Origin: an uncultured Clostridia bacterium
Lineage (GTDB): Bacteria > Bacillota > Clostridia > TANB77 > CAG-508
Length of the DNA stretch: 64,000 bases
NCBI GenBank assembly: GCA_944387495.1
Contig: CALXFD010000003.1
Span: forward strand, 3,534 to 67,533
Direction of reading: 5' to 3'
A program made the position numbers and the translations under genes. Shown piece by piece: positions 36,971 to 47,506 of the stretch (position 1 is the first letter of the stretch; every line of letters begins with the position of its first letter). The notes beneath the pieces were generated by a model. That model searched no databases, was not told the DNA's origin, and was given only the letters and a program-made list of their open reading frames with translations.

Positions 36971-37000
36971 TAAAAAAATGGGCAGAAGCCCATTTTTTTT
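36971..37000 (+). terminator. rho-independent terminator (aatgggcagaagcccatt + T8)
   Basis: Read directly. Confidence 0.7.
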
Positions 37001-37079
37001 GACTTTATAATTTTAAATTATGAATTATATAAAAAATATTAGTACATAATAATATAAAAATCTATGAATAGGTGAAAAA

Positions 37080-39281
37080 ATGAAAAGAAAATATATAATT
37101 CCAATGTGTATAATTTCCTTTATTTTAGTAATTACAGTTTTTTTGTCATTACTTTTTTTAAATTATGTACAAAATTTAATTAAAGAAACAACTTCAAAAA
37201 ACTTAGGAGAAATAGCAAAACAAGATGCAAGTAGGTTGGAAAATGTAATACAAGAACATGTGAGAATTTTAGAAACTATTGTAAATCAGGCGAAACAAGA
37301 AGGTATAAAACAAGAAGAGGTTCTTTTTAAAATATTTAATAATAATTCAGGAAAGGAAGAGTTTTCGCGAATTGGAATTTTGCATAAAGATGGTAATACA
37401 GTAACAAATGATGGAATAAATGTTGATTTATCAGAAGATGTAGAATATTTTTTTTCAACAGATACAGTCCAAATTTCAAAAAGTAGGGTAAGTAAGATTA
37501 ATCAAGAAGAGATTAATATATATTCTCAAAAACTTAGTATAGAAAATCAAGAAATAGTGGTTTTATTAGTAATTGAAACAGATAAGTATGAAGAAATGTT
37601 TTCACAAAAAATATATAATGGAAATGCAAGAGAATATCTAATTACAAGTTCAGGAGAGATTTTAGCAAATTCAAAAGGAGAAAAAAATGGAGAAAATATT
37701 TATGCAGAATTAGAAAAAGTAAATAAAGAACAAGAAAAAAATAAAAATTATATTAGAGAAATGCAAGATTCTATATCAAAAAAAATAGATGGACAAATTG
37801 TATATAAATATCAAGGGCAGAACTTATATATTGCATATGAAAATATGGAAGAAGAAAATTGGGTATTAGTTGTAATAACACAAGGTAATATAATAGCTGA
37901 GGAATTGAATCATTTGTTACAAATTATATTAGTAATTTCAATTATTATATTAATAATAGTTTTTGTAGTTACAACATATATAATTTTATCAAATATATCA
38001 AAAAAAGAAAGCTTGTATAGATTAGCATATGTGGACCCTGTTACGAAATTAGGAAATTATAACTATTTCGTAGAAAAAGGAAAAGAGTATTTAGAAAGAA
38101 AAACACAAGATAATAAATATGTTATAGTTGTAGATATAGATAAATTCAAAGCTTTTAATAATAGATATGGGCATAAAATAGGTGATAAATTATTAAGCAA
38201 AATAGGAAATATATTAAAATTAATATTGCCAGAAGAAACACTAATATGTAGGCTTGCAAATGATTTATTTGCACTTGTTGTAATTACAGACAAAAGAGCT
38301 GAAAAAATAGCAAATTTAATTGACGAAAGTTTAACAAATATACAAATAGATAATATAGAATATAAAATATATATTTCAATAGGTATTTATGAAGTAAAGG
38401 AAAATAATGATAATATAATAGAATTAGTAGACAAAGCATTAGTAGCTCATAAGATGGTAAAAGGAAATTATAGTATAAGATATAATGTATTTGAGCAAAA
38501 AGAAGAAGAAAAAGAATTAAAAGAACATGAGATAGAAAGAACAATGGAAAAAGCATTAGAAAATCAAGAATTTAAAATATATTATCAACCCAAAATATCA
38601 ATAAAAAATGAAAAAATACTTGGTGCAGAAAGTTTAGTTAGATGGGAAAAAGAGGGTAAAATAATACCACCAAATGAGTTTATTCCAATTTTTGAAAAAA
38701 ATTATTTTATAATAGAATTAGATAAATATGTATTTGAAGAAACTTGTAAAGATATAGCAAAATGGAAAAAAGAATATAAAGAAGTACCATTAATATCAGT
38801 AAATGTTTCAAAAGAAAATTTTATAAATCCAGAGTTTATAGAAGAATATATAAAAATAGCAAAAAAATATAATATAAGACCAGAAGAAATTGAATTAGAA
38901 ATAACAGAAAGAGGAGCTGTAAAAGAAAATATAAACATAATAAATAAAATTAAAAAAGCAGGTTTTATAGTATCAATAGATGATTTTGGCACAGGATATT
39001 CAAGTTTGAGTTTATTGCAGGATTTAACAATAGATATAATAAAAATAGATAGAGAATTTATAAAACAAATTAATTTTAAAGATAAAAGTAAAAATATAGT
39101 AGAATATATAATTTTAATGGCAAAAAAATTAAACTTAAAAACTGTTGCAGAAGGAGTAGAGAAAAAAGAAGAGGTAGAATATTTGAAAGAATTAGGATGT
39201 GATTTAATACAAGGTTATTATTATTTTAAACCATTGACAAAGTTGGAATTTGAGGAGATTTTAATAAAAACAGATAAATAA
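37080..39281 (+). CDS. membrane sensor protein with periplasmic Cache-like domain, degenerate GGDEF domain and intact EAL domain (putative c-di-GMP phosphodiesterase)
   Basis: Two TM segments flank a ~245-aa extracytoplasmic region. The GGDEF position reads RLANDLF. EAL motifs ESLVRW, DDFGTGYSSL, EGVE and QGYYY are present. Confidence 0.8.
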   Translation: MKRKYIIPMCIISFILVITVFLSLLFLNYVQNLIKETTSKNLGEIAKQDASRLENVIQEHVRILETIVNQAKQEGIKQEEVLFKIFNNNSGKEEFSRIGILHKDGNTVTNDGINVDLSEDVEYFFSTDTVQISKSRVSKINQEEINIYSQKLSIENQEIVVLLVIETDKYEEMFSQKIYNGNAREYLITSSGEILANSKGEKNGENIYAELEKVNKEQEKNKNYIREMQDSISKKIDGQIVYKYQGQNLYIAYENMEEENWVLVVITQGNIIAEELNHLLQIILVISIIILIIVFVVTTYIILSNISKKESLYRLAYVDPVTKLGNYNYFVEKGKEYLERKTQDNKYVIVVDIDKFKAFNNRYGHKIGDKLLSKIGNILKLILPEETLICRLANDLFALVVITDKRAEKIANLIDESLTNIQIDNIEYKIYISIGIYEVKENNDNIIELVDKALVAHKMVKGNYSIRYNVFEQKEEEKELKEHEIERTMEKALENQEFKIYYQPKISIKNEKILGAESLVRWEKEGKIIPPNEFIPIFEKNYFIIELDKYVFEETCKDIAKWKKEYKEVPLISVNVSKENFINPEFIEEYIKIAKKYNIRPEEIELEITERGAVKENINIINKIKKAGFIVSIDDFGTGYSSLSLLQDLTIDIIKIDREFIKQINFKDKSKNIVEYIILMAKKLNLKTVAEGVEKKEEVEYLKELGCDLIQGYYYFKPLTKLEFEEILIKTDK

Positions 39282-39308
39282 GCTGAAATTATTAAAAATA
39301 TTAATATA

Positions 39309-39352
39309 AAAGTAAATTCTAGTTTTAAATAAAATTTAGAATTTACTTTTAA
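39309..39352 (+). terminator. rho-independent terminator (aaagtaaattcta / tagaatttacttt)
   Basis: 13-bp perfect stem followed by an AT-rich tail. Confidence 0.55.
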
Positions 39353-39521
39353 ATTTATATATATTTTTAAGCCTATAAAAATATATTTTAGGAAAATAAA
39401 ATTTTATAGATTTTATACTTTATTTTGTTTGTAAATAAAACTATGAAATGCTGATATAGCAAGTGTTCGAGAGATAATATAAAAACACGAACAAATTTTT
39501 TAACTTTTTTCAAAAAAAGTA

Positions 39522-39550
39522 TTGACAAAGAATAAAATAGAGTATAAAAT
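39522..39550 (+). promoter_or_regulatory. putative sigma-A promoter (TTGACA -17- TAAAAT)
   Basis: Consensus -35 hexamer and a good -10, about 60 nt upstream of the DUF45 gene. Confidence 0.45.
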
Positions 39551-39608
39551 ATGTTCATAAAAACAAACAACAATTCGTAAAACAAAAATTCAAAGAAGGA
39601 GTGATATT

Positions 39609-40145
39609 ATGAACATAGTTAGAAGAAAAATAAATGTTAGAACATATGTAGAAAGCGGAATAGAAAGACATCCAGTGCCAGTGTTGGGAACAGACTATAA
39701 AGTAAAAATAGTATACAAAAATGTAAGAGTACCAGAACTAGATGTTCAAGATAAAGTAATAAAAATATCACTTCCTAATAGATACAAAAAAAGTGATAAT
39801 CAAGAAATCTTAGACTTAGCAATAGAAAAAATGTATGAACAAATAGCAAAAGTAGAAATAGAAAGAGCAATGGAAAAAACTAGAATAATGTTAGGATTTG
39901 CACCAGATGATTATGAAATAAAAAATATGAAAAAAGAAATAGCAAGATGTATAGATAACAAAATAACAATAAATCCTAAAATAGTAATGTACCATAGAAA
40001 TATTATAGATTTTATAGTTTTACATGAATATTGTCATTTAAAATATAAAACACATTCAAAATATTTTTATAGAATGCTCGAAAAATATGAAACAAATTTT
40101 GAAAAATACGAAAAAATATTAAAAGCAGACTTGTTACAATACTAA
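39609..40145 (+). CDS. DUF45 / YgjP-like zinc metallopeptidase (HExxH)
   Basis: C-terminal VLHEYCHLKY HExxH motif. 178 aa. RBS AAGGAG. Confidence 0.7.
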   Translation: MNIVRRKINVRTYVESGIERHPVPVLGTDYKVKIVYKNVRVPELDVQDKVIKISLPNRYKKSDNQEILDLAIEKMYEQIAKVEIERAMEKTRIMLGFAPDDYEIKNMKKEIARCIDNKITINPKIVMYHRNIIDFIVLHEYCHLKYKTHSKYFYRMLEKYETNFEKYEKILKADLLQY

Positions 40146-40166
40146 AAATACTGTATAATTAAAGGC

Positions 40167-42140
40167 ATGATGAAAGAGATAAAAGTAAATAAAAAATATA
40201 ATGAAAAAAAATTAAATAAGATAATATTAGAACAAATTCCTGAATGTAATTACAATAATTTTTGTAAATTGCTAAGAAAAAAAGATATAAAAGTAAATGG
40301 TAAAAGAACCAATAAAGATATAGTAATTTATGAAAATGATGTAATAACAATATATTTACCAGAAAATATAGAAAATAAAGAAATAAAAATAGATATAGTA
40401 TATGAAGATGACAATATAATAATGGTAAATAAACCAGCTAATATAGAAGTAACAGGAAATGCAAGTTTAACAGAACTTATACACAAAAAGTATGCAAATT
40501 GTGAATTTAAGCCAATGCCATGCCACAGAATAGATAGAAACACAATAGGTCTAGTATTATTTGCTAAAAATGAAGAAAGTTTAAACATACTGTTAGAAAA
40601 ATTTAAAAAGCGCGAAATAGAAAAACATTATTTAGCACATGTGTATGGAATACCAAAAATAAAAAAGCAAAGACTAGAAGCATATTTATTCAAAGATAAT
40701 AAAAAAGCACAAGTATATATTAGTGATAATTTTAAAAAAGGAGCACAAAAAATTATCACTATTTATAATGTTGTAGAAGAAAGAAAAGATAATACATCAA
40801 TATTAGATGTAGAAATTCAAACAGGCAAAACTCATCAAATAAGAGCTCACCTATCATATATTGGTTATCCAATAATAGGTGATGGAAAATATGGCAAGAA
40901 TGAGATAAATAAGAAATTTCATAAAAAATACCAAGAGTTATGTAGTTATAAAATGAAATTTAATTTTAAAACAGAAAGTGGCATTCTAAATTATTTAGCA
41001 CAAAAAGAAATAATACTAAAAAGTGCAAATAAAGAAAACATGACAAGCATTGAAAAAGAAAGCTTATATGTAAGAAATAATAGGATTATTGAAGTAATAA
41101 TGAAAGAAATGAAAGATAAATGTCCTGATGCGATAGATTTAATTGGAATTGCTGGCTCATTTTGCAATGGTGATATTTACAAAAAGTCAGATTTAGATTT
41201 AGTAATTATTTCTAATAATGACAGTGCAAAATGTTTAGATAAATGCTTTATCATTGATGATGTAGCTTTTGATATTTATACACAGGGATGGCAAAGATTT
41301 GAAACTATGGCTAAATATAAACATCCTTATGTTACTAAATTGTTTGATTTAAATATTGTATATTCACGTAATAAAGATGTTGTAAAAAAATATAAATTTT
41401 ACCAAGCTTTACTTCAATCTAATATGAACAATACGGAACTTGTTAACGCTCATATAGGCTCACATTTTACGAAGGTTTTAGGAAGTGTTAGTTCTTTACA
41501 AAATGTTTCTAATATGGGTGTTGCATATAGAAAATTATCACGTATTATTAAAGAGATTGAATTTATCCTTTTTATGATTAATAGAACTTATGTTAAAAGG
41601 GGAACGAAAAGAATTCCAGAAGAAATAGCAAGTTTAAAAATATTACCTAAAGATTTTTTGCCTATTTATAATGATATGGTTAATTGTAAGACATTGGAAG
41701 AAATTAAGAGTAAATCATTATTAATTACAAGTTCAATAAAAGAACTATTAGATAATATGAGTATCAGCTATGAGTTGATAGAAGATAATAAAAAAGATTT
41801 TACTAAAAAAGTGATAAATGTAACTGATTTACTAGGAACTTATGAAGAAATTTATTCAAATTGGAAAAATAAGATGTATCATGCTATTGATATTAATAGT
41901 GTTTATCTATCTTTCGTAACCATGAGTGCTTGTCAAGAATTTTATGATGAAATGTCAGATAGGTTTGATATTCCTGGAATAGAGTTATTAGAGAAATATA
42001 ATCCAGATGATTTAAAAGGAAATGCTAATTCTTTTGATAATTCTTTAAATGAATGGAAAAAACTATACGATATGTTTGAATTAACAGTACAATATTATTC
42101 TAATTTGGAAGAATTTGAAAATTTATACAAAGAAAAGTAA
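40167..42140 (+). CDS. RluA-family pseudouridine synthase (N-terminal S4-like domain) fused in frame to a C-terminal nucleotidyltransferase module (~350 aa)
   Basis: PUS motifs HRIDRNTIGLVLFAKN and GKTHQIRAHL in residues 1-290. Then MTSIEKESLYVRNNRIIEVIMKEMKDKCPDAIDLIGIAGSFCNGDIYKKSDLDLVI (GS..DxD NTase signature) plus a helical tail. Confidence 0.7.
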   Translation: MMKEIKVNKKYNEKKLNKIILEQIPECNYNNFCKLLRKKDIKVNGKRTNKDIVIYENDVITIYLPENIENKEIKIDIVYEDDNIIMVNKPANIEVTGNASLTELIHKKYANCEFKPMPCHRIDRNTIGLVLFAKNEESLNILLEKFKKREIEKHYLAHVYGIPKIKKQRLEAYLFKDNKKAQVYISDNFKKGAQKIITIYNVVEERKDNTSILDVEIQTGKTHQIRAHLSYIGYPIIGDGKYGKNEINKKFHKKYQELCSYKMKFNFKTESGILNYLAQKEIILKSANKENMTSIEKESLYVRNNRIIEVIMKEMKDKCPDAIDLIGIAGSFCNGDIYKKSDLDLVIISNNDSAKCLDKCFIIDDVAFDIYTQGWQRFETMAKYKHPYVTKLFDLNIVYSRNKDVVKKYKFYQALLQSNMNNTELVNAHIGSHFTKVLGSVSSLQNVSNMGVAYRKLSRIIKEIEFILFMINRTYVKRGTKRIPEEIASLKILPKDFLPIYNDMVNCKTLEEIKSKSLLITSSIKELLDNMSISYELIEDNKKDFTKKVINVTDLLGTYEEIYSNWKNKMYHAIDINSVYLSFVTMSACQEFYDEMSDRFDIPGIELLEKYNPDDLKGNANSFDNSLNEWKKLYDMFELTVQYYSNLEEFENLYKEK

Positions 42141-42157
42141 ATTTTAATAGATACTAC

Positions 42158-42195
42158 AATAGCCTAGAATTAAATCCTAGGCTATTGTTTTAATG
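42158..42195 (+). terminator. rho-independent terminator (tagcctag / ctaggcta + TTTT)
   Basis: Read directly. Confidence 0.6.
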
Positions 42196-42518
42196 ACTTA
42201 GAGCTTAAAAATTTTCCAACCTTTTTTATAATCATACAAATTATTATTATAATACTCCCACAAAGTTCTAAAACTACTTATTTTTAATAATTCTAGAATT
42301 TTGTGGGAGTAATTTATGGAGCGGATGTCGTAGTTATCTACAATTTTTTCTCTTATTAACAATTGATATAAAAATCAATCTCATTGTCTTTGCCTTAACA
42401 TAAAATTTATGTTTTGCAAGTAATTTATTTAAAATTTTACAAACCTTTGTTCTAAAATATATTGGCTTTTATGCTAGAATATTGTATAATTTGGAAAAAA
42501 AGGAAGTGCGAAATTTAT

Positions 42519-43112
42519 ATGAATATAAATAAAAATATAATTAACATTATAAAAAGAAATGATACTAAATTTAAGAATATGAAATTTATGCAAGATGAAC
42601 AATTAAAAAAAGAATTTTTTACATCATTGAAAAATTACGAATTTAAACTGACTGAACAATCAGCTTATAAAATAGCATTATGGATAGAATCCAATGAAAA
42701 GCATTTATCTGCATCTCAGCAAAGCAATTTTACTAATTATAGTTTAGGTGAAATACTTTTAGTTGATTTAGGTTGGAATAATTATGATAGAGAATTTGCC
42801 TATATACATCCTGCTGTTGTTATAAAAGTAACTTCTACAAAAATATTTATAGTTCCTTGCTCAAGTGGTACTCCTAGAAAAGATAAAAATGGAAATATAT
42901 ATCCTGAATTTGAAGTTGGAACAATTAACGATGGATTTCAAAAAAATACAGTAGTTATGCTATATGAAGCAAAATACATTGATAAAAATAGAGTTATTTC
43001 AAGATTAGGAAAAATCTCAAATCAATTTTTTGATAAAATTTATAATAAACTATTTGAACAAATCTTCGAACCAATACATTATAAAATGCAGAAACTAGAA
43101 AATAATCAATAA
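42519..43112 (+). CDS. PemK/MazF-like toxin-fold protein with a ~90-aa N-terminal extension; no adjacent mazE-like gene
   Basis: GEILLVDLG..HPAVVIK..IFIVPCSSGT..KNTVVMLYEAKYIDKNRVISRLGKIS collinear with MazF/EndoA (GDVYFADL..RPVLVI..ILLEQIRTIDKQRL). ATG 42519 after AAAGGA. Confidence 0.55.
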   Translation: MNINKNIINIIKRNDTKFKNMKFMQDEQLKKEFFTSLKNYEFKLTEQSAYKIALWIESNEKHLSASQQSNFTNYSLGEILLVDLGWNNYDREFAYIHPAVVIKVTSTKIFIVPCSSGTPRKDKNGNIYPEFEVGTINDGFQKNTVVMLYEAKYIDKNRVISRLGKISNQFFDKIYNKLFEQIFEPIHYKMQKLENNQ

Positions 43113-43169
43113 TAATCTTATTTTTGCATATAATAAGTATAGAAATATAAAAGAAATTTTATATTTTGA

Positions 43170-43303
43170 TTGACTTATCGTATCAAAAATGCTACACTAA
43201 ATATAGATATTTGAGGCGGTATGCCGATGCCATAGGTTTTAGACCTATGATGAAAAGTAAAATAGCTTAATACTTGATGACAAGTGTTAAGCTATTATTT
43301 TTG
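43170..43303 (+). ncRNA. candidate small RNA: promoter (TTGACT -17- TGcTACACT) driving a ~100-nt transcript that ends at an intrinsic terminator (tagcttaa..ttaagcta + T-run)
   Basis: Promoter hexamers at 43170-43198. Internal hairpin ccatagg/cctatga and the terminator at 43263-43303. Only 4- and 7-codon ORFs inside. Confidence 0.25.
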
Positions 43304-43484
43304 TTATAGAAAAAATCAAGCATTTTATTTGTTGATTTTCATATATATCTGTTCTATTAGTTCGAGCAGAAACGTCGTTGGAGCGAATCACATACAAGTT
43401 ACGAATTTTGTTCTCTTTCTAGTGATATTATATAAGAATTACTATTAAAGTTCAAGATTATTTTTACAATTTTTTCAAATAATA

Positions 43485-43513
43485 TTGATTTTAGAACTTT
43501 CGTTTGGTATAAT
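43485..43513 (+). promoter_or_regulatory. putative sigma-A promoter for the KilA-N gene (TTGATT -17- TATAAT)
   Basis: Perfect -10 hexamer, 40 nt upstream of the start codon. Confidence 0.45.
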
Positions 43514-43552
43514 GGTGTAAAATAATTACTATTTCTAAAAGGAGGTTAAAAT

Positions 43553-44350
43553 ATGCCAGAGTTAAAAGTTTTAAATCAAAAGATAACTTATATAAAAATT
43601 GATGATGAAGATTATATATCAATTACTGATATGTTAAAATCAAAAGATGGGGATTTTTTTGTTTCAGATTGGTTAAGAAATAGAAATACTATTGAATTTT
43701 TAGGCATTTGGGAAGAAATTCATAATCCTAATTTTAATTATGGCGAATTCGCCATAATTAAAAGTCAAGCAGGTTTAAATAGTTATAAAATAAGTGTAAA
43801 AGAATGGACAGAAAAAACAAATGCAATTGGAATAATATCAAAAGCTGGAAGATATGGTGGAACTTATGCTCACAAAGATATTGCTTTTGAATTCGGAATG
43901 TGGATTAGCCCCAAATTCAAATTATTATTGATAAAAGAATTTGAAAGGCTAAAAGCAGAAGAACAAAAGCAAATAGGCTGGAATGCTAAAAGAGAACTTT
44001 CAAAAATTAATTATAGAATACATACTGATGCCATAAAGAATAATTTAGTGCCTAAAGAATTAACTAAAAGTCAAATAAACTTTGTTTATGCAGAAGAAGC
44101 TGATGTTTTAAATATGGCACTATTCGGTATAACTGCAAAAGAATGGCGTACTAATAATCCTAATTTAGGTGGAAATATAAGAGATTATGCTACAATGAAT
44201 GAATTAATATGTTTAGCAAATTTAGAAAATTTAAATTCAGTTTTTATAAAAGAAGGTTTAAAACAATCTGAAAGGCTTAAAAAATTAAACAAAATTGCTA
44301 TATCTCAGATGCAAATTTTGAATGATACTGATATAAAATATTTAAAATAA
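43553..44350 (+). CDS. KilA-N domain-containing protein (phage antirepressor-like)
   Basis: N-terminal YISITDM..FLGIWEE..KSQAGLNSY..GGTYAHKDIAFEFGMWISP block typical of KilA-N. RBS AAAGGAGG. Confidence 0.7.
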   Translation: MPELKVLNQKITYIKIDDEDYISITDMLKSKDGDFFVSDWLRNRNTIEFLGIWEEIHNPNFNYGEFAIIKSQAGLNSYKISVKEWTEKTNAIGIISKAGRYGGTYAHKDIAFEFGMWISPKFKLLLIKEFERLKAEEQKQIGWNAKRELSKINYRIHTDAIKNNLVPKELTKSQINFVYAEEADVLNMALFGITAKEWRTNNPNLGGNIRDYATMNELICLANLENLNSVFIKEGLKQSERLKKLNKIAISQMQILNDTDIKYLK

Positions 44351-44404
44351 ATATTTTTATATACTTATAAAAAGCTTTTAGATTATTTAGAACTATAGTA
44401 ATAA

Positions 44405-44442
44405 AAAAAGAAACCTCACTTTGTCTAGTGTGGTTTCTTTTT
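44405..44442. terminator. bidirectional hairpin terminator (aagaaacc / ggtttctt) between the KilA-N gene and tRNA-Gly
   Basis: Stem flanked by an A-run on one side and a T-run on the other. Confidence 0.45.
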
Positions 44443-44457
44443 ATGAATATTACCTGT

Positions 44458-44531
<74 letters not shown>

Positions 44532-44643
44532 ACATACATATACATATTATACAATTAAATATAAAAAATTTCAATAAAAATATTTGATTTTACTAAAATT
44601 CATGTTATAATTAAAAAGAAGAATTTAAAATAGGGAGAAATGT

Positions 44644-45384
44644 ATGAATCAAATATTAGTAACTAAAAAGTTATACATAACGCCAGAATTAAAAAGAAAA
44701 AAGAAAATATATAAATTTAACTTCATAATATCACTATTTTTTTTACTAGTATTAGTATCATTATATATTTATGCAGCATATGATAGAAATAAAACAGCAG
44801 AACAATCAGAAGAAATCTTAGCAAGTGTAGATATACCAGAAGATACAACAGTAGCAGATAGTGATGTATTAGTAGCAGTTCTAAATGATACTGAACAAGA
44901 TAATATAGAAGAAGCACCAGTTGCAAATTTAAAGCCGACTGTAAATAAAACAAAACAAAAATCATCATCTGGATATACATATGTTGTAGATGCTAAAATA
45001 CAAATACCAAAGATAAATGTAGAATATGGAATAGTATCAGGAGAGACTAAATCAGTACAAGAAACAGAAGAATTATTAAAAATGTCACCAGTTAAATTCC
45101 ATGGACCAGAACCAAATGAAGTAGGAAATTATTGTATAGTTGGTCATAATTATAGAAATACTAAATTTTTTAGTAAAGTACCAACATTAGTAAATGGAGA
45201 TATAATAAAAATAACAGATATGACTGGAAAAACAGTTGAATATGCAGTTTATGATAAATACACTGTTGTACCAGAAGATGTAAGTTGTACATCACAAGAA
45301 ACAGGAGGAAAAACAGAAATTACATTAATAACATGTACAGATGATAGTAAACTAAGAGTTATAGTAAAAGCAAGAGAAGTATAG
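44644..45384 (+). CDS. sortase family transpeptidase (N-terminal membrane anchor)
   Basis: Catalytic His in VGHNYRN, catalytic Cys in ITLITCTD, and Arg in RVIVKARE. Confidence 0.75.
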   Translation: MNQILVTKKLYITPELKRKKKIYKFNFIISLFFLLVLVSLYIYAAYDRNKTAEQSEEILASVDIPEDTTVADSDVLVAVLNDTEQDNIEEAPVANLKPTVNKTKQKSSSGYTYVVDAKIQIPKINVEYGIVSGETKSVQETEELLKMSPVKFHGPEPNEVGNYCIVGHNYRNTKFFSKVPTLVNGDIIKITDMTGKTVEYAVYDKYTVVPEDVSCTSQETGGKTEITLITCTDDSKLRVIVKAREV

Positions 45385-45387
45385 AAT

Positions 45388-45435
45388 AAAAACTGAAAAG
45401 TTAGTAAATAAATAGATTAACTTTTCAGTTTTTTA
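45388..45435 (+). terminator. rho-independent terminator (aaaactgaaaagtta / taacttttcagtttt + T-run)
   Basis: Read directly. Confidence 0.65.
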
Positions 45436-45570
45436 TTTTATCAAAAAATATTAAGAAGTTTATAAAAATAGTTGTAATATATGCAAGTGTTAATTATTTT
45501 TATGTATATTATACTTGTTTTTTTCTACTATTCAGTATATAATATACCAGATAAAGATAGGAGATGATAT

Positions 45571-45861
45571 ATGATGCAAGTAAGCAAAGAAGAAATATTA
45601 CATATTGCAAATTTAGCAGATTTAACATTAGAAGAAAATGAAATAGAAAAATATAGAGAAAATTTACAAGAAATATTAAATTTTGCAGATATAGTAAATA
45701 ATGCAAATACAGAAAATTTAGATATAACAATAGGAACTAATGAAGCAAAAAATGTATTTAGAAAAGATGAAGTAGAAATATTTGAAGATAATGAGGCATT
45801 ATTAAGAAATGCACCAAGTGAAGAACAACATATGTTTAAAATACCAAAAGTATTAAATTAA
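45571..45861 (+). CDS. gatC: Asp-tRNA(Asn)/Glu-tRNA(Gln) amidotransferase subunit C
   Basis: ~95 aa with a typical GatC N-terminus (VSKEEILHIANLADLTLEENE). First gene of the gatCAB operon. Confidence 0.85.
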   Translation: MMQVSKEEILHIANLADLTLEENEIEKYRENLQEILNFADIVNNANTENLDITIGTNEAKNVFRKDEVEIFEDNEALLRNAPSEEQHMFKIPKVLN

Positions 45862-45949
45862 TGAGTAATAAAAATAATAACAATTTATCATTAAGGAAAT
45901 ATGTAAAGCTTATAAAAAAATGACATAATAAGAAGGAGGATATTAGTTT

Positions 45950-47410
45950 ATGGAAATTACTGAATTAACAGTACATGAATTGCAAGAAAAGTTAAAAAAT
46001 AAAGAGATTAAAGTAACAGACATAACAAAAGCATATATAGATAAAATAAATGAAAAAGAAAAAGATGTACAAGCATTTGTAACTTTATTAACAGATGAAG
46101 CTTTAAAGGAAGCAGAAGAAATCCAAACTAAAATAGATAATGGAGAAAATTTAGGAGATTATGCAGGTATTCCAATAGGAATAAAAGACAATATATGTAC
46201 AAAAGGTGTAAAAACAACATGTAGTTCAAAAATGTTAGAAAATTTTGTTTCTCCTTATGATGCAACAGTAATGGAAAAATTAAATAAAGAAAATCTAATA
46301 GATTTAGGAAAATTAAATATGGATGAATTTGCAATGGGAGGTTCAACAGAACATTCATATTTTAAAATAACAAAAAATCCAAGAAATCTAAATAAAGTAC
46401 CAGGAGGTTCATCAGGAGGAAGTGCAGCAGCAGTAGCTGCTAATATGGTACCATGGGCTTTGGGAAGTGATACAGGTGGTTCAATAAGACAACCTGCTAG
46501 TTTTTGTGGTGTTGTAGGTCTAAAACCAACATATGGTTTAGTATCAAGATATGGACTAGTTGCTTTTGCATCATCACTTGATCAAATTGGACCTATAACA
46601 AAAGATGTAGAAGATGCAGCAATATTATTAAATCTAATAGCTGGTCATGATAAAAAAGATACAACATCAGCAGATATAGAGAAAAAAGATTATACAAAAT
46701 GTCTAAAAAAAGATATAAAAGGTATAAAAATAGGAGTTCCAAAAGAATTCTTTGGAGAAGGAATTAATGAAGAAGTAAAAAATACATTATATAAAGCAAT
46801 TGAAAAATACAAAGAAATGGGAGCAGAAGTAGAAGAATTTTCATTAGATATTGCAAAATATTCATTAGCAGCATATTACATAATAGCATGTGCAGAAGCA
46901 AGTTCAAATTTAGGTAGATTTGATGGAATAAGATATACATATAGAACAAAAGAATTTAAGAATTTAAAAGAATTATATAGAAAATCAAGAAGTGAAGGTT
47001 TTGGACCAGAAGTCAAAAGAAGAATTATTTTAGGAACATATGTATTATCATCAGGATATTATGATGCATATTACAAAAAAGCTCAAAAAGTAAGAACATT
47101 AGTGATGAATGAATTTAATAATGCATTTAAAAAATATGATGTAATATTAACTCCAACATCACCAACAGTTGCATTTGACATAGGCTCAAAAACAAGCGAC
47201 CCACTAGAAATGTATTTATCAGATATTTGTACAGTTTCAGTAAATATAGCAGGGTTACCAGCAATATCAATTCCTTGTGGTCAAGATAAAGAAAATATGC
47301 CAATAGGAATGCAACTAATAGGAAATAGATTCTGTGAAGAAACAATTTTAAATGTAGCTTATAAATTTGAACAAGATTTAAAATTTAGAGAAAATTATAA
47401 ATCAGAATAA
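45950..47410 (+). CDS. gatA: Asp-tRNA(Asn)/Glu-tRNA(Gln) amidotransferase subunit A
   Basis: Amidase signature [25 protein letters not shown]. Confidence 0.95.
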
Positions 47411-47506
47411 TAAAGATTTTAAATTAATTCATAAAAAGTAAAAAATAAATAAAAGTTCATAAAAGTTACTAGAATTAAGAAATAACCAGAAAATTATAAA
47501 GGAGAA

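What the first reader, a model, noticed from the sequence alone, without database searches (positions are those of the whole stretch)
40167..42140. In-frame fusion of an RluA-type pseudouridine synthase to a nucleotidyltransferase (GS..DxD) module
Residues 1-290 are a complete S4 plus RluA pseudouridine synthase (HRIDRNTIG catalytic Asp). The ORF then continues without a stop into a sequence that looks like the start of an independent minimal nucleotidyltransferase gene (MTSIEKESLYVRNNRIIEVIMKEMKDKCPDAIDLIGIAGSF..SDLDLVI) plus a ~250-aa helical domain. I do not recognise this as an established architecture. An RNA-modification enzyme joined to an NTase could be a dual RNA-modifying protein or a toxin/antitoxin-like module captured by stop-codon loss. 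The upstream neighbour is a solitary DUF45 HExxH metallopeptidase with its own strong promoter.
Basis: partly seen in the sequence, partly recalled or inferred. Interest (0 to 1): 0.55.

Follow-up and report, generated by a model that had tools for sequence, protein, structure and literature searches.

The report
Strain-specific RluA–nucleotidyltransferase gene fusion
A housekeeping RNA-modifying enzyme gene (rluA) has really been joined in frame to an imported kanamycin-nucleotidyltransferase-like gene in some strains of one low-GC gut bacterium, because a swapped-in accessory gene cassette removed the rluA stop codon; it looks like a young by-product of gene-cassette turnover, not a conserved new enzyme architecture.

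Summary
The 657-aa ORF (40167-42140) is real. It consists of a complete RluA-type pseudouridine synthase, two new codons (Glu-Asn), and then a complete 366-aa nucleotidyltransferase that starts at its own Met. It is not an assembly error. Identical or near-identical fused alleles occur on at least 37 contigs from three accession series.

The same 90% protein cluster also holds 290-aa unfused rluA alleles ending in a stop codon. At the DNA level, a 2.1-kb cassette (NTase plus a PemK-like gene) replaces a 1.07-kb segment (DUF3592-like gene). The left breakpoint lies inside the last two codons of rluA. The NTase lost its own Shine-Dalgarno sequence, so it can probably be made only as the fusion.

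The NTase belongs to a widespread, uncharacterised family of stand-alone proteins (~360 aa). Its predicted fold is closest to ANT(4') kanamycin nucleotidyltransferase, and relatives are repeatedly linked or fused to GNAT acetyltransferases. They are never linked to RluA: 80 genomes and 1.84 billion representative proteins yielded no second RluA-NTase fusion.

My reading is an incidental, tolerated, bifunctional "beads-on-a-string" protein in an accessory-gene hotspot between rluA and tRNA-Gly. The toxin/antitoxin and dual-RNA-modifier readings are not supported. Interest is modest.

The parts
39609..40145 (+). ygjP/DUF45-like HExxH metallopeptidase gene, upstream neighbour, present in all haplotypes. 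A promoter-like site (TTGACA-17-TAAAAT) lies at 39522-39550.
   Evidence: Pfam PF01863, E 4.9e-25. Promoter scan. Present in fused and unfused loci.
40131..40159 (+). Promoter-like site TTGTTA-17-TATAAT. It ends 8 nt before the rluA ATG. rluA has almost no Shine-Dalgarno sequence (-0.1 to -3.6 kcal/mol).
   Evidence: This is a consensus match only.
40167..41033 (+). RluA-type pseudouridine synthase part of the fusion (residues 1-289): S4-like N-terminus plus the catalytic domain with HRIDRNTIG. It is 98.4% identical in DNA to the unfused 290-aa alleles up to position 41034.
41034..41039 (+). Fusion joint. The codons GAA AAC (Glu-Asn) replace GCT TTT TAA (Ala-Phe-stop) of the unfused allele. 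Homology to unfused rluA ends at 41034 and homology to stand-alone NTase genes begins at 41037-41040.
   Evidence: DNA alignment. blastn. Low-pLDDT tether at residues 286-289 of the model.
41040..42140 (+). ANT(4')/KNTase-like nucleotidyltransferase part (366 aa), starting at the family's native Met. It has GS(39-40), D51xD53 and D78, two helical domains, and all 35 family-invariant residues. It has no SD of its own (-1.6 kcal/mol).
42156..42188 (.). 15-bp hairpin located 16 nt after the stop codon, the likely end of the ygjP-rluA::NTase transcription unit. The scan scores it on the minus strand. On the plus strand it is followed by TTTAAT.
41035..43177 (+). The 2.14-kb segment specific to the fused haplotype (NTase plus PemK-like gene). 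It replaces 1.07 kb of the unfused haplotype (L011 5471-6536: rluA stop, 258-aa DUF3592-like gene, spacer).
   Evidence: blastn of the window against L010, L011 and L018. Alignments. Pfam of the 258-aa ORF.
42462..43112 (+). PemK/MazF-like ORF with a ~90-aa N-terminal extension. Gene callers give 197 aa from the ATG at 42519, which has an SD. It was co-acquired with the NTase but is not linked to it anywhere else.
   Evidence: Pfam PF02452, E 1e-8..
43178..43385 (+). Segment shared by all haplotypes (right-hand anchor of the replacement). It has a promoter-like site and the hairpin-plus-T-run at 43261-43296, so it may be a small RNA.
   Evidence: No Rfam family.
43378..44465 (+). 1.09-kb KilA-N element (gene 43553-44350, PADLOC candidate PDC-S22) inserted at the 3' end of tRNA-Gly. 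It is present in some haplotypes only.
44458..44531 (-). tRNA-Gly(UCC), the right border of the variable region.

Best explanation
The ORF is a real, recently formed chimeric gene. In one lineage of a ~27% GC bacterium, the stretch between rluA and tRNA-Gly is a hotspot where accessory genes are exchanged. One exchange replaced the gene just downstream of rluA (a DUF3592-like membrane protein) with a 2.1-kb segment carrying an ANT(4')-like nucleotidyltransferase gene and a PemK-like gene. The left crossover fell inside the last two codons of rluA and a few bases before the NTase ATG. It deleted the rluA stop codon and the NTase's Shine-Dalgarno sequence, and left the two reading frames in phase (shown). 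As a result, the ribosome that starts on rluA reads through Glu-Asn into the NTase and makes a ~76-kDa protein. In that protein a complete pseudouridine synthase and a complete NTase fold independently on a short flexible tether (inferred from the models and the missing SD). The RluA part most likely keeps its housekeeping rRNA/tRNA pseudouridylation role. The NTase part most likely keeps whatever its stand-alone relatives do, which by fold and by recurrent GNAT linkage is nucleotidylylation of a small molecule, plausibly an antibiotic-like compound (inferred). The fusion itself is probably neutral or merely tolerated. It has nevertheless persisted long enough to sit on two diverged strain backgrounds.
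For: 1) Both forms occur in one 90% cluster. The 656-aa fused alleles are P0160 (17 contigs), P0162 (8), P0163 (8), P0167 (2), P0171 (1) and P0121 (1). The 290-aa alleles are P0159 (22), P0161 (9) and others, ending ...SANKAF* or ...SANKSL*, against ...SANKEN-MTSIEKE in the fusion.
2) Breakpoints: window 37000-41034 matches unfused L010/L011 at 98.4%. Window 41040-42146 matches the stand-alone NTase gene of L001 at 89.5%. Window 42147-43177 is unique to the fused haplotype, and homology resumes at 43178.
3) The stand-alone gene has a GGGAGG SD (-11.6 kcal/mol). Across 79 family members the median is -8.7. The internal Met here scores -1.6.
4) The NTase is a stand-alone family: 258 hits of ~360-375 aa and 222 relatives in GTDB species genomes. 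An RluA-like gene lies within 6 kb in 1 of 80 loci, on the opposite strand. The 120 best RluA orthologues are 288-300 aa. In an exhaustive phmmer search of 1.84e9 representatives, the top 150 hits match residues 2-290 or 292-657, never both.
5) The NTase half is intact. It keeps all 35 invariant residues. dN/dS against L001 is 0.22. The fused lineage has 13 unique amino-acid changes against 24 in the stand-alone lineage.
6) Fold: the AF2 model has pLDDT 94.4. The top PDB matches are ANT(4')-Ia 6un8/1kny (E 2e-6, TM 0.72 on the target), then ANT(4')-IIb and LinB. GNAT fusions occur in both orders, with adjacent GNAT genes in relatives.
7) Full-length model: both domains are confident, pTM is 0.62, and pLDDT falls below 50 only at 66-70 and at the joint 286-289.
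8) Fused alleles of the window and L009 differ at dS 0.080 in rluA but dS 0.010 in the NTase half. ygjP is ~18% diverged while the cassette is ~0.3% diverged.
Against: There is no expression or protein evidence, so translation as one polypeptide is inferred from sequence only. The purifying-selection signal (omega 0.22) mostly predates the fusion. Since the fusion there are only 2 synonymous and 3 non-synonymous differences, so post-fusion constraint on the NTase half is untested. The same joint lies on two rluA backgrounds, with the last rluA difference only ~35 nt from the joint. This could mean either homologous-recombination spread or a repeated, site-directed event, and I cannot tell which. 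Identity to ANT(4') is only ~13%. An extra ~110-aa helical domain is present, and the window protein has no KNTase_C Pfam hit, so the substrate is a guess. The organism was not identified.
Confidence: 0.75

Rival explanations
1. The fusion is adaptive. Tethering the NTase to an RNA- or ribosome-binding pseudouridine synthase gives a new function. One possibility is a dual RNA-modifying enzyme in which the S4/RluA module delivers the NTase to rRNA or tRNA. Another is an antibiotic-inactivating enzyme held at the ribosome, the target of aminoglycosides and lincosamides.
For: The fused haplotype is common (at least 37 contigs) and is found on two diverged strain backgrounds without any restoration of a stop. 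The NTase has lost its own SD, so its expression now depends on the fusion. Both halves are intact. The closest folds are enzymes that inactivate ribosome-targeting antibiotics.
Against: No other RluA-NTase fusion or adjacency was found in 80 genomes or in 1.84e9 representative proteins. The unfused allele is about equally common in the same species. The joint is only two residues with no evolved linker, and pTM 0.62 gives no sign of a domain interface. The event is young (dS 0.01). The family's recurrent partners are GNATs, not RNA-binding domains.
Confidence: 0.1
2. The NTase half is dead cargo. After losing its ribosome-binding site and being welded to RluA, it is a non-functional appendage on its way to decay, and only RluA activity matters.
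For: The fusion arose by an apparently accidental breakpoint. Post-fusion polymorphism in the NTase half is 2 synonymous to 3 non-synonymous changes (omega ~0.34, not distinguishable from neutrality). KNTase-type enzymes act as dimers (established knowledge of ANT(4')-Ia), which an N-terminal 33-kDa appendage might disturb.
Against: No stop, frameshift or loss of any of the 35 invariant residues occurs in any fused allele. The fused lineage shows fewer unique substitutions than the stand-alone sister (13 vs 24). The model is confident in the fusion context. The event is too young to expect decay, so this rival is not excluded.
Confidence: 0.1
3. It is a captured toxin-antitoxin or anti-phage defence module. 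The NTase would act as an MNT/MntA-like antitoxin or a nucleotide-signal synthase, working with the co-acquired PemK-like toxin.
For: The NTase and the PemK-like ORF arrived in the same 2.1-kb segment. There are weak hits to MntA (E 0.03-0.07) and PADLOC PDC-S09 (E 5e-4). The hotspot also carries the defence candidate PDC-S22 (KilA-N, E 1e-128). Foldseek lists MntA and Hailong HalB at low rank.
Against: MntA scores 13-14 bits against a cutoff of 60. The matches cover only the ~60-residue NTase core. No invariant Arg/His exists for a HEPN Rx4-6H motif. PemK, KilA-N and YgjP homologues are absent from all 80 other NTase loci. The closest homologue sits after an NAD-salvage cluster. The two-domain fold matches ANT(4') far better (TM 0.72 versus 0.42-0.46 on short MntA chains). 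The PemK-like ORF has no PADLOC hit.
Confidence: 0.04
4. It is an assembly or sequencing artefact: a missed stop, a frameshift, or a chimeric join of two organisms' contigs.
For: A stand-alone relative of the NTase (L001) occurs in the same sample (ERZ28616110) as a fused contig (L025). Contig coverages are low (about 4-8x in the record names).
Against: The same joint was recovered in nine assemblies from three accession series, made with different assemblers, and in NCBI and Logan data. The window's NTase is only 89.5% identical to L001, so it is not the same molecule. The contigs continue on both sides into the species' core genes. Two fused alleles carry distinct linked SNPs.
Confidence: 0.01

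Closest known systems
RluA-family pseudouridine synthases (TIGR00005; E. coli RluA/RluC/RluD type)
   Same: The N-terminal 289 residues have the PseudoU_synth_2 domain and the HRxDxxTxG catalytic-Asp motif. They have the usual ~290-aa length, and the sequence is virtually identical to unfused alleles in the same species.
   Different: The native last two residues and the stop codon are replaced, and a 366-aa foreign enzyme is appended. The TIGR00005 score is 7 bits under the trusted cutoff. The target uridine(s) are unknown.
ANT(4')-Ia kanamycin nucleotidyltransferase (PDB 1KNY, 6UN8) and ANT(4')-IIb (4EBJ); more distantly the lincosamide NTase LinB (3JYY)
   Same: The layout is the same two-domain one: an N-terminal pol-beta-type NTase with GS...DxD plus a third Asp, followed by a helical domain. 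These are the best structural matches (E 2e-6, TM 0.72 normalised to the target). Some relatives carry a precomputed KNTase_C Pfam hit.
   Different: Identity is only ~13%. The protein is 366 rather than ~253 aa, with a further conserved ~110-aa helical domain (GTYEEIYSNWKNKM, CQxFYDE). The window protein has no KNTase_C hit. The family is absent from phage records and, apart from one weak partial match (23.8% identity, 51% coverage), from plasmid records. The substrate is unknown.
Bifunctional resistance enzymes made by gene fusion, e.g. ANT(3'')-Ii-AAC(6')-IId and AAC(6')-Ie-APH(2'')-Ia (PMC6017855)
   Same: These are in-frame fusions of two complete enzymes created by cassette rearrangement. 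Relatives of this NTase are themselves fused to GNAT acetyltransferases in both orders (L046, P0025, P0298, P0319).
   Different: Here the partner is a housekeeping RNA-modification enzyme, not a second small-molecule modifier. No shared substrate is evident.
MNT/MntA minimal nucleotidyltransferase antitoxins (type VII TA with HEPN toxins)
   Same: They share the minimal NTase core motif (weak hits).
   Different: The model cutoff is failed (13-14 vs 60 bits). There is no HEPN partner or Rx4-6H motif. The protein is three times larger, with conserved extra domains.

Membership tests
RluA-family pseudouridine synthase | PseudoU_synth_2 catalytic domain (PF00849) above the gathering score | tested here: met
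   115.9 bits vs 26.8, residues 83-230.
RluA-family pseudouridine synthase | Catalytic Asp in the HRLDxxTSG-type motif | tested here: met
   HRIDRNTIG is present in the translation. It is identical in the unfused alleles.
RluA-family pseudouridine synthase | TIGR00005 rluA_subfam trusted cutoff | tested here: not met
   185.7 bits vs 192.7, a near miss. The alignment spans model positions 3-284 of 298.
RluA-family pseudouridine synthase | N-terminal S4-like RNA-binding domain | tested here: inconclusive
   No Pfam S4 hit at E<=0.1. The TIGR00005 span starts at residue 11, and the model shows helix-helix-strand elements at 15-61.
RluA-family pseudouridine synthase | Pseudouridine formation at defined rRNA/tRNA sites | not testable with these tools
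   Needs biochemistry or pseudouridine mapping.
Pol-beta superfamily minimal nucleotidyltransferase (PF01909) | G[SG]-x9-13-DxD motif plus a third carboxylate; Pfam gathering score | tested here: met
   GS 39-40, D51/D53 and D78 are invariant in 28 family members. PF01909 scores 21.2 bits (fusion) and 23.9 bits (half) vs 21, which is marginal.
ANT(4')/KNTase aminoglycoside nucleotidyltransferases | Two-domain fold: NTase domain plus helical KNTase_C-type domain | tested here: met
   Foldseek top 11 hits are all ANT(4')-Ia or ANT(4')-IIb, E 2e-6 to 3e-4, TM 0.55-0.72 on the target. The model has pLDDT 94.4.
ANT(4')/KNTase aminoglycoside nucleotidyltransferases | Sequence membership (PF07827 KNTase_C, or a PDB sequence match) | tested here: not met
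   The window protein has no PF07827 hit at E<=0.1. A profile search against PDB sequences finds no ANT. Only some relatives carry a precomputed PF07827 hit.
ANT(4')/KNTase aminoglycoside nucleotidyltransferases | Catalytic base Glu contributed by the helical domain (E145 in ANT(4')-Ia, from memory) | tested here: inconclusive
   Invariant E174/E195 exist in the helical domain, but no residue-level superposition was available.
ANT(4')/KNTase aminoglycoside nucleotidyltransferases | Adenylylation of aminoglycosides / resistance phenotype | not testable with these tools
   Needs MIC and enzyme assays.
MNT/MntA-HEPN type VII toxin-antitoxin | MntA model above cutoff; adjacent HEPN toxin with an Rx4-6H motif | tested here: not met
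   NF047752 scores 13-14 bits vs 60. There is no invariant R/H in the helical part. No conserved partner gene occurs in 80 loci.
Conserved multidomain architecture 'RluA + NTase' | Recurrence of the fusion or of gene adjacency in independent lineages | tested here: not met
   The only fused hits are in the window's own 90% cluster. None of the 80 genomic NTase loci has a same-strand or adjacent RluA gene; one (L031) has an RluA-like gene ~2.3 kb upstream on the opposite strand. None of the top 150 hits in 1.84e9 representatives covers both halves.

The most novel reading that the evidence does not exclude
The fusion is under selection because the RluA/S4 module brings the ANT-like NTase to the ribosome or to a specific RNA. 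It would then either nucleotidylylate RNA or inactivate a ribosome-targeting compound at its site of action. That would make it a natural example of a resistance or modification enzyme tethered to the ribosome-biogenesis machinery.
Probability: 0.08. Interest if true: 0.65.

Novelty: new variant of a known kind. Interest (0 to 1): 0.3.

Why it matters
This is a clean, population-resolved snapshot of how a new multidomain protein is born in bacteria. Both the ancestral allele (with a stop codon) and the derived fused allele are circulating in the same species. The breakpoint is mapped to within five bases, and the donor gene family has been identified. If the fused protein proves active in both halves, it shows that cassette turnover next to core genes can create bifunctional enzymes in a single step.

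Separately, the NTase belongs to an uncharacterised ANT(4')-like family of ~360-aa proteins. The family is frequently GNAT-linked and spread across gut Bacillota and several other phyla. It is a reasonable candidate for a new small-molecule or antibiotic nucleotidyltransferase class and deserves a substrate screen. The architecture itself is not conserved, so it does not by itself point to new RNA biology.

Tried and rejected
- Missed stop or assembly chimera: rejected. The fusion appears in multiple independent assemblies, and two fused alleles carry distinct linked SNPs.
- Known RluA accessory domain: rejected. All 120 closest RluA orthologues are 288-300 aa, and the C-half is a separate stand-alone family.
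- Orthologous loci with the two halves as adjacent separate genes: looked for and not found. Unfused alleles are followed by a DUF3592-like gene, not the NTase. NTase loci elsewhere lack RluA.
- TA or defence module: PADLOC, NCBIfam MntA and neighbourhood tests were negative or weak.
- Other long RluA-containing hits (P0122, P0124, P0134, P0135, P0137): single-contig singletons with unrelated partners or spurious extensions. I treated them as mis-calls or chimeras, not as evidence for a fusion-prone site.
- PDB sequence-profile search: nothing significant.
- Plasmid and phage collections: one weak hit and none.
- Rfam scan of the region: only the tRNA.
- Literature search for an RluA-NTase fusion: nothing relevant.
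- Organism identification failed. The genome scan did not recover the window's own species via the NTase, and no source names were attached to the close proteins.
Full report
OBSERVATION

The window contains a single ORF at 40167..42140 (+) of 657 aa; the DNA shows no stop or frame change. Pfam finds PseudoU_synth_2 at residues 83-230 (E 2.4e-33) and NTP_transf_2 at 311-390 (21.2 bits in the fusion, 23.9 bits for the half alone, cutoff 21). NCBIfam finds TIGR00005 rluA_subfam over residues 11-278 at 185.7 bits, just below the 192.7 cutoff. The catalytic motif HRIDRNTIG and the NTase GS...DLD motif are present. The only caveat is that the S4 domain is not recovered by Pfam; it is supported only by the TIGR00005 span and the predicted secondary structure.

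THE TWO HALVES ARE NORMALLY SEPARATE PROTEINS

Searching with residues 292-657 returned 258 proteins. Nearly all are 356-390 aa and start at the same Met. The closest, P0001, is 84% identical and exactly 366 aa. A genome scan found 222 relatives in GTDB species representatives. Most are Bacillota, with some Chloroflexota, Patescibacteria, Kosmotogaceae and Treponema. In the 80 loci kept, the ORF is stand-alone in practically all of them.

The 120 closest RluA orthologues (73-77% identity) are 288-300 aa. An RluA-like gene lies within 6 kb of the NTase in only 1 of 80 genomes, on the opposite strand. PemK, KilA-N and YgjP homologues are never nearby.

A full-length search of 5.8 billion clusters found a single fused cluster, the window's own (P0121, 99% identity). 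An exhaustive phmmer search of 1.84 billion representatives listed 150 hits of at least 180 bits. Each matched residues ~2-290 or ~292-657, and none matched both. The literature search found no description of such an architecture.

THE FUSION IS REAL AND POLYMORPHIC WITHIN ONE SPECIES

The 90% cluster of P0121 contains 656-aa fused alleles: P0160 on 17 contigs, P0162 on 8, P0163 on 8, P0167 on 2, P0171 on 1 and P0121 on 1. Sources include ENA, Logan and NCBI. The same cluster also contains 290-aa alleles: P0159 on 22 contigs, P0161 on 9, and others. Unfused proteins end ...ILKSANKAF* or ...SANKSL*, while fused proteins read ...ILKSANKEN-MTSIEKE.... Fused contigs come from nine assemblies of three accession series, and L018 is 100% identical to window 39823-47500. 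An artefact is therefore excluded for practical purposes.

HOW IT AROSE

The blastn comparisons show the following:
- Window 37000-41034 aligns to the unfused loci L010/L011 at 98.4%, ending 8 nt before the end of their rluA CDS.
- Window 41040-42146 aligns at 89.5% to the stand-alone NTase gene of L001 and nowhere else in that locus. L026 likewise matches only 41037-42136.
- Window 42147-43177, which holds the PemK-like ORF, is unique to the fused haplotype.
- Homology to the unfused loci resumes at 43178.

So 2.14 kb (41035-43177) replaces 1.07 kb of the unfused haplotype (L011 5471-6536). That replaced stretch holds the rluA stop and a 258-aa gene with a sub-threshold DUF3592 hit.

At base level, the unfused AAT AAA GCT TTT TAA becomes AAT AAA GAA AAC ATG. 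The stand-alone gene in L001 has GGGAGG 8 nt upstream of its ATG. In the window that position is rluA coding sequence. The predicted SD:anti-SD duplex is -1.6 kcal/mol, against -11.6 in L001 and a median of -8.7 in 79 family members. Independent initiation at 41040 is therefore unlikely, and the NTase is probably made only as the fusion (inference).

The wider region is an accessory hotspot. The KilA-N gene (PADLOC PDC-S22, E 1e-128) lies in a 1.09-kb element inserted at the 3' end of tRNA-Gly(UCC) (44458-44531, minus strand). Other haplotypes carry a larger island or none.

AGE AND SPREAD

Two fused alleles, the window and L009, differ at dS 0.080 in the RluA half but only 0.010 in the NTase half. 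L009's rluA is closer to unfused alleles (dS 0.013) than to the window's rluA. Along the locus, ygjP is ~18% diverged, rluA ~2%, and the NTase-PemK segment ~0.3%. The same young cassette and joint therefore sit on two diverged backgrounds. This could reflect homologous-recombination spread or repeated insertion, and I cannot distinguish the two.

IS THE NTase HALF ALIVE?

It retains all 35 invariant residues of a 28-member alignment. dN/dS against L001 is 0.22 (dS 0.33). With L026 as outgroup, the fused lineage has 13 unique amino-acid changes against 24 in the stand-alone lineage. No fused allele has a stop or frameshift.

One caveat matters here. Most of this divergence predates the fusion. 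Since the fusion there are only 2 synonymous and 3 non-synonymous changes.

WHAT THE NTase IS

The AF2 model of the half is confident (pLDDT 94.4, pTM 0.92): an alpha/beta NTase domain followed by two helical bundles. Foldseek against the PDB puts ANT(4')-Ia kanamycin nucleotidyltransferase first (6un8, 1kny; E 2e-6; TM 0.72 on the target; ~13% identity). ANT(4')-IIb, the 3c18 NTase-like protein and LinB follow. MntA and HalB match only the core. A sequence profile finds nothing significant in the PDB.

Relatives are fused to GNAT acetyltransferases at either end: L046 (529 aa), P0025 (550 aa), P0298 and P0319. Others have adjacent or overlapping GNAT genes: L026, L027, L031, L059/61/62, L069/70 and L103. 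This echoes known bifunctional aminoglycoside-modifying enzymes such as ANT(3'')-Ii-AAC(6')-IId (PMC6017855).

The family is absent from phage records and almost absent from plasmid records. I infer a small-molecule, possibly antibiotic-like, nucleotidyltransferase of unknown substrate. Membership in the ANT(4') family proper is not established: there is no KNTase_C hit, and the protein has an extra ~110-aa domain.

THE FUSION PROTEIN

A full-length model built from a block alignment of both families gives mean pLDDT 88.8 but pTM 0.62. pLDDT falls below 50 only at a loop (66-70) and at residues 286-289, which is the joint. This fits two independently folded domains on a very short tether, with no predicted interface.

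VERDICT

It is wrong on the TA-like and dedicated dual-RNA-modifier ideas. The best explanation is an incidental, tolerated gene fusion created by accessory-cassette replacement at the 3' end of rluA (confidence ~0.75).

The rivals are an adaptive ribosome- or RNA-tethered NTase (~0.1), an NTase half that is functionally dead cargo (~0.1), a TA/defence module (~0.04) and an artefact (~0.01). The finding is a new variant of known kinds, and interest is modest (0.3). It is mainly useful as a caught-in-the-act example of domain fusion and as a pointer to an uncharacterised ANT(4')-like, GNAT-associated enzyme family.

Noticed in passing
window 43378-44531: A 1.09-kb element carries a KilA-N gene (43553-44350) that matches PADLOC phage-defence candidate PDC-S22 at E 1e-128. 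It is inserted at the 3' end of tRNA-Gly(UCC) (44458-44531, minus strand), with a partial duplicate of the tRNA end at 43377-43421. It is absent from haplotype L011, and in L010 it is part of a larger island (NT5C, glutamine amidotransferase, LysR, aldolase). No integrase is visible.
   Followed up: partly
window 43178-43385: A ~200-nt intergenic segment is conserved in all haplotypes. It has a promoter-like TTGACT-17-TACACT site and a 16-bp hairpin plus T-run (43261-43296). It may be a small RNA or a leader. There is no Rfam match above noise.
   Followed up: partly
window 42462-43112: A PemK/MazF-like ORF has a ~90-aa N-terminal extension (the likely true start is the ATG at 42519, 197 aa, with an SD). 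It has no recognisable antitoxin gene and no PADLOC hit. It is specific to the fused haplotype.
   Followed up: partly
window 39609-40145 vs L009 89-625: The ygjP/DUF45-like metallopeptidase gene is ~18% diverged between two strains whose neighbouring rluA differs by ~2% and whose NTase cassette differs by 0.3%. This is a hyper-divergent allele or a recombination import next to the hotspot.
   Followed up: no
window 40131-40170: rluA has essentially no Shine-Dalgarno sequence (-0.1 to -3.6 kcal/mol). A TATAAT -10-like hexamer ends 8 nt before its ATG. It may be a leaderless or near-leaderless mRNA, or it may be translationally coupled to ygjP.
   Followed up: no
L001 6001-7106; L026 2277-3373; window 41037-42149: In three different genomic contexts, nucleotide homology of the NTase gene starts within 3 nt of the ATG and ends within 9 nt of the stop. 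The gene appears to move, or to be retained, as a bare ORF with no shared flanks. The mechanism is unexplained.
   Followed up: partly
L046 5506-7095; P0025; P0298; P0319; L026 3373-4317; L031 2445-2927: The NTase family is repeatedly fused to, or adjacent to, GNAT acetyltransferases, at either terminus. One relative (P0129, 602 aa) carries a xylose-isomerase-like TIM barrel instead. This suggests a small-molecule modification pathway.
   Followed up: partly
L001 1-5835: The closest stand-alone NTase gene lies just downstream of an NAD-salvage cluster (nadE, prs, nadD-like, CinA, NrtR, NAD kinase) and a nucleoside 2-deoxyribosyltransferase. This may be a coincidence or a hint of a nucleotide or nucleoside substrate.
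   Followed up: no
P0124, P0134, P0135, P0137 (proteins): These are single-contig metagenomic proteins that join fragments of close RluA or NTase relatives to unrelated domains (zinc ribbon/TSP3, polysaccharide pyruvyl transferase, a lipoprotein-like N-terminus, a coiled coil). They are probably assembly chimeras or mis-calls, unlike the well-replicated fusion studied here.
   Followed up: partly
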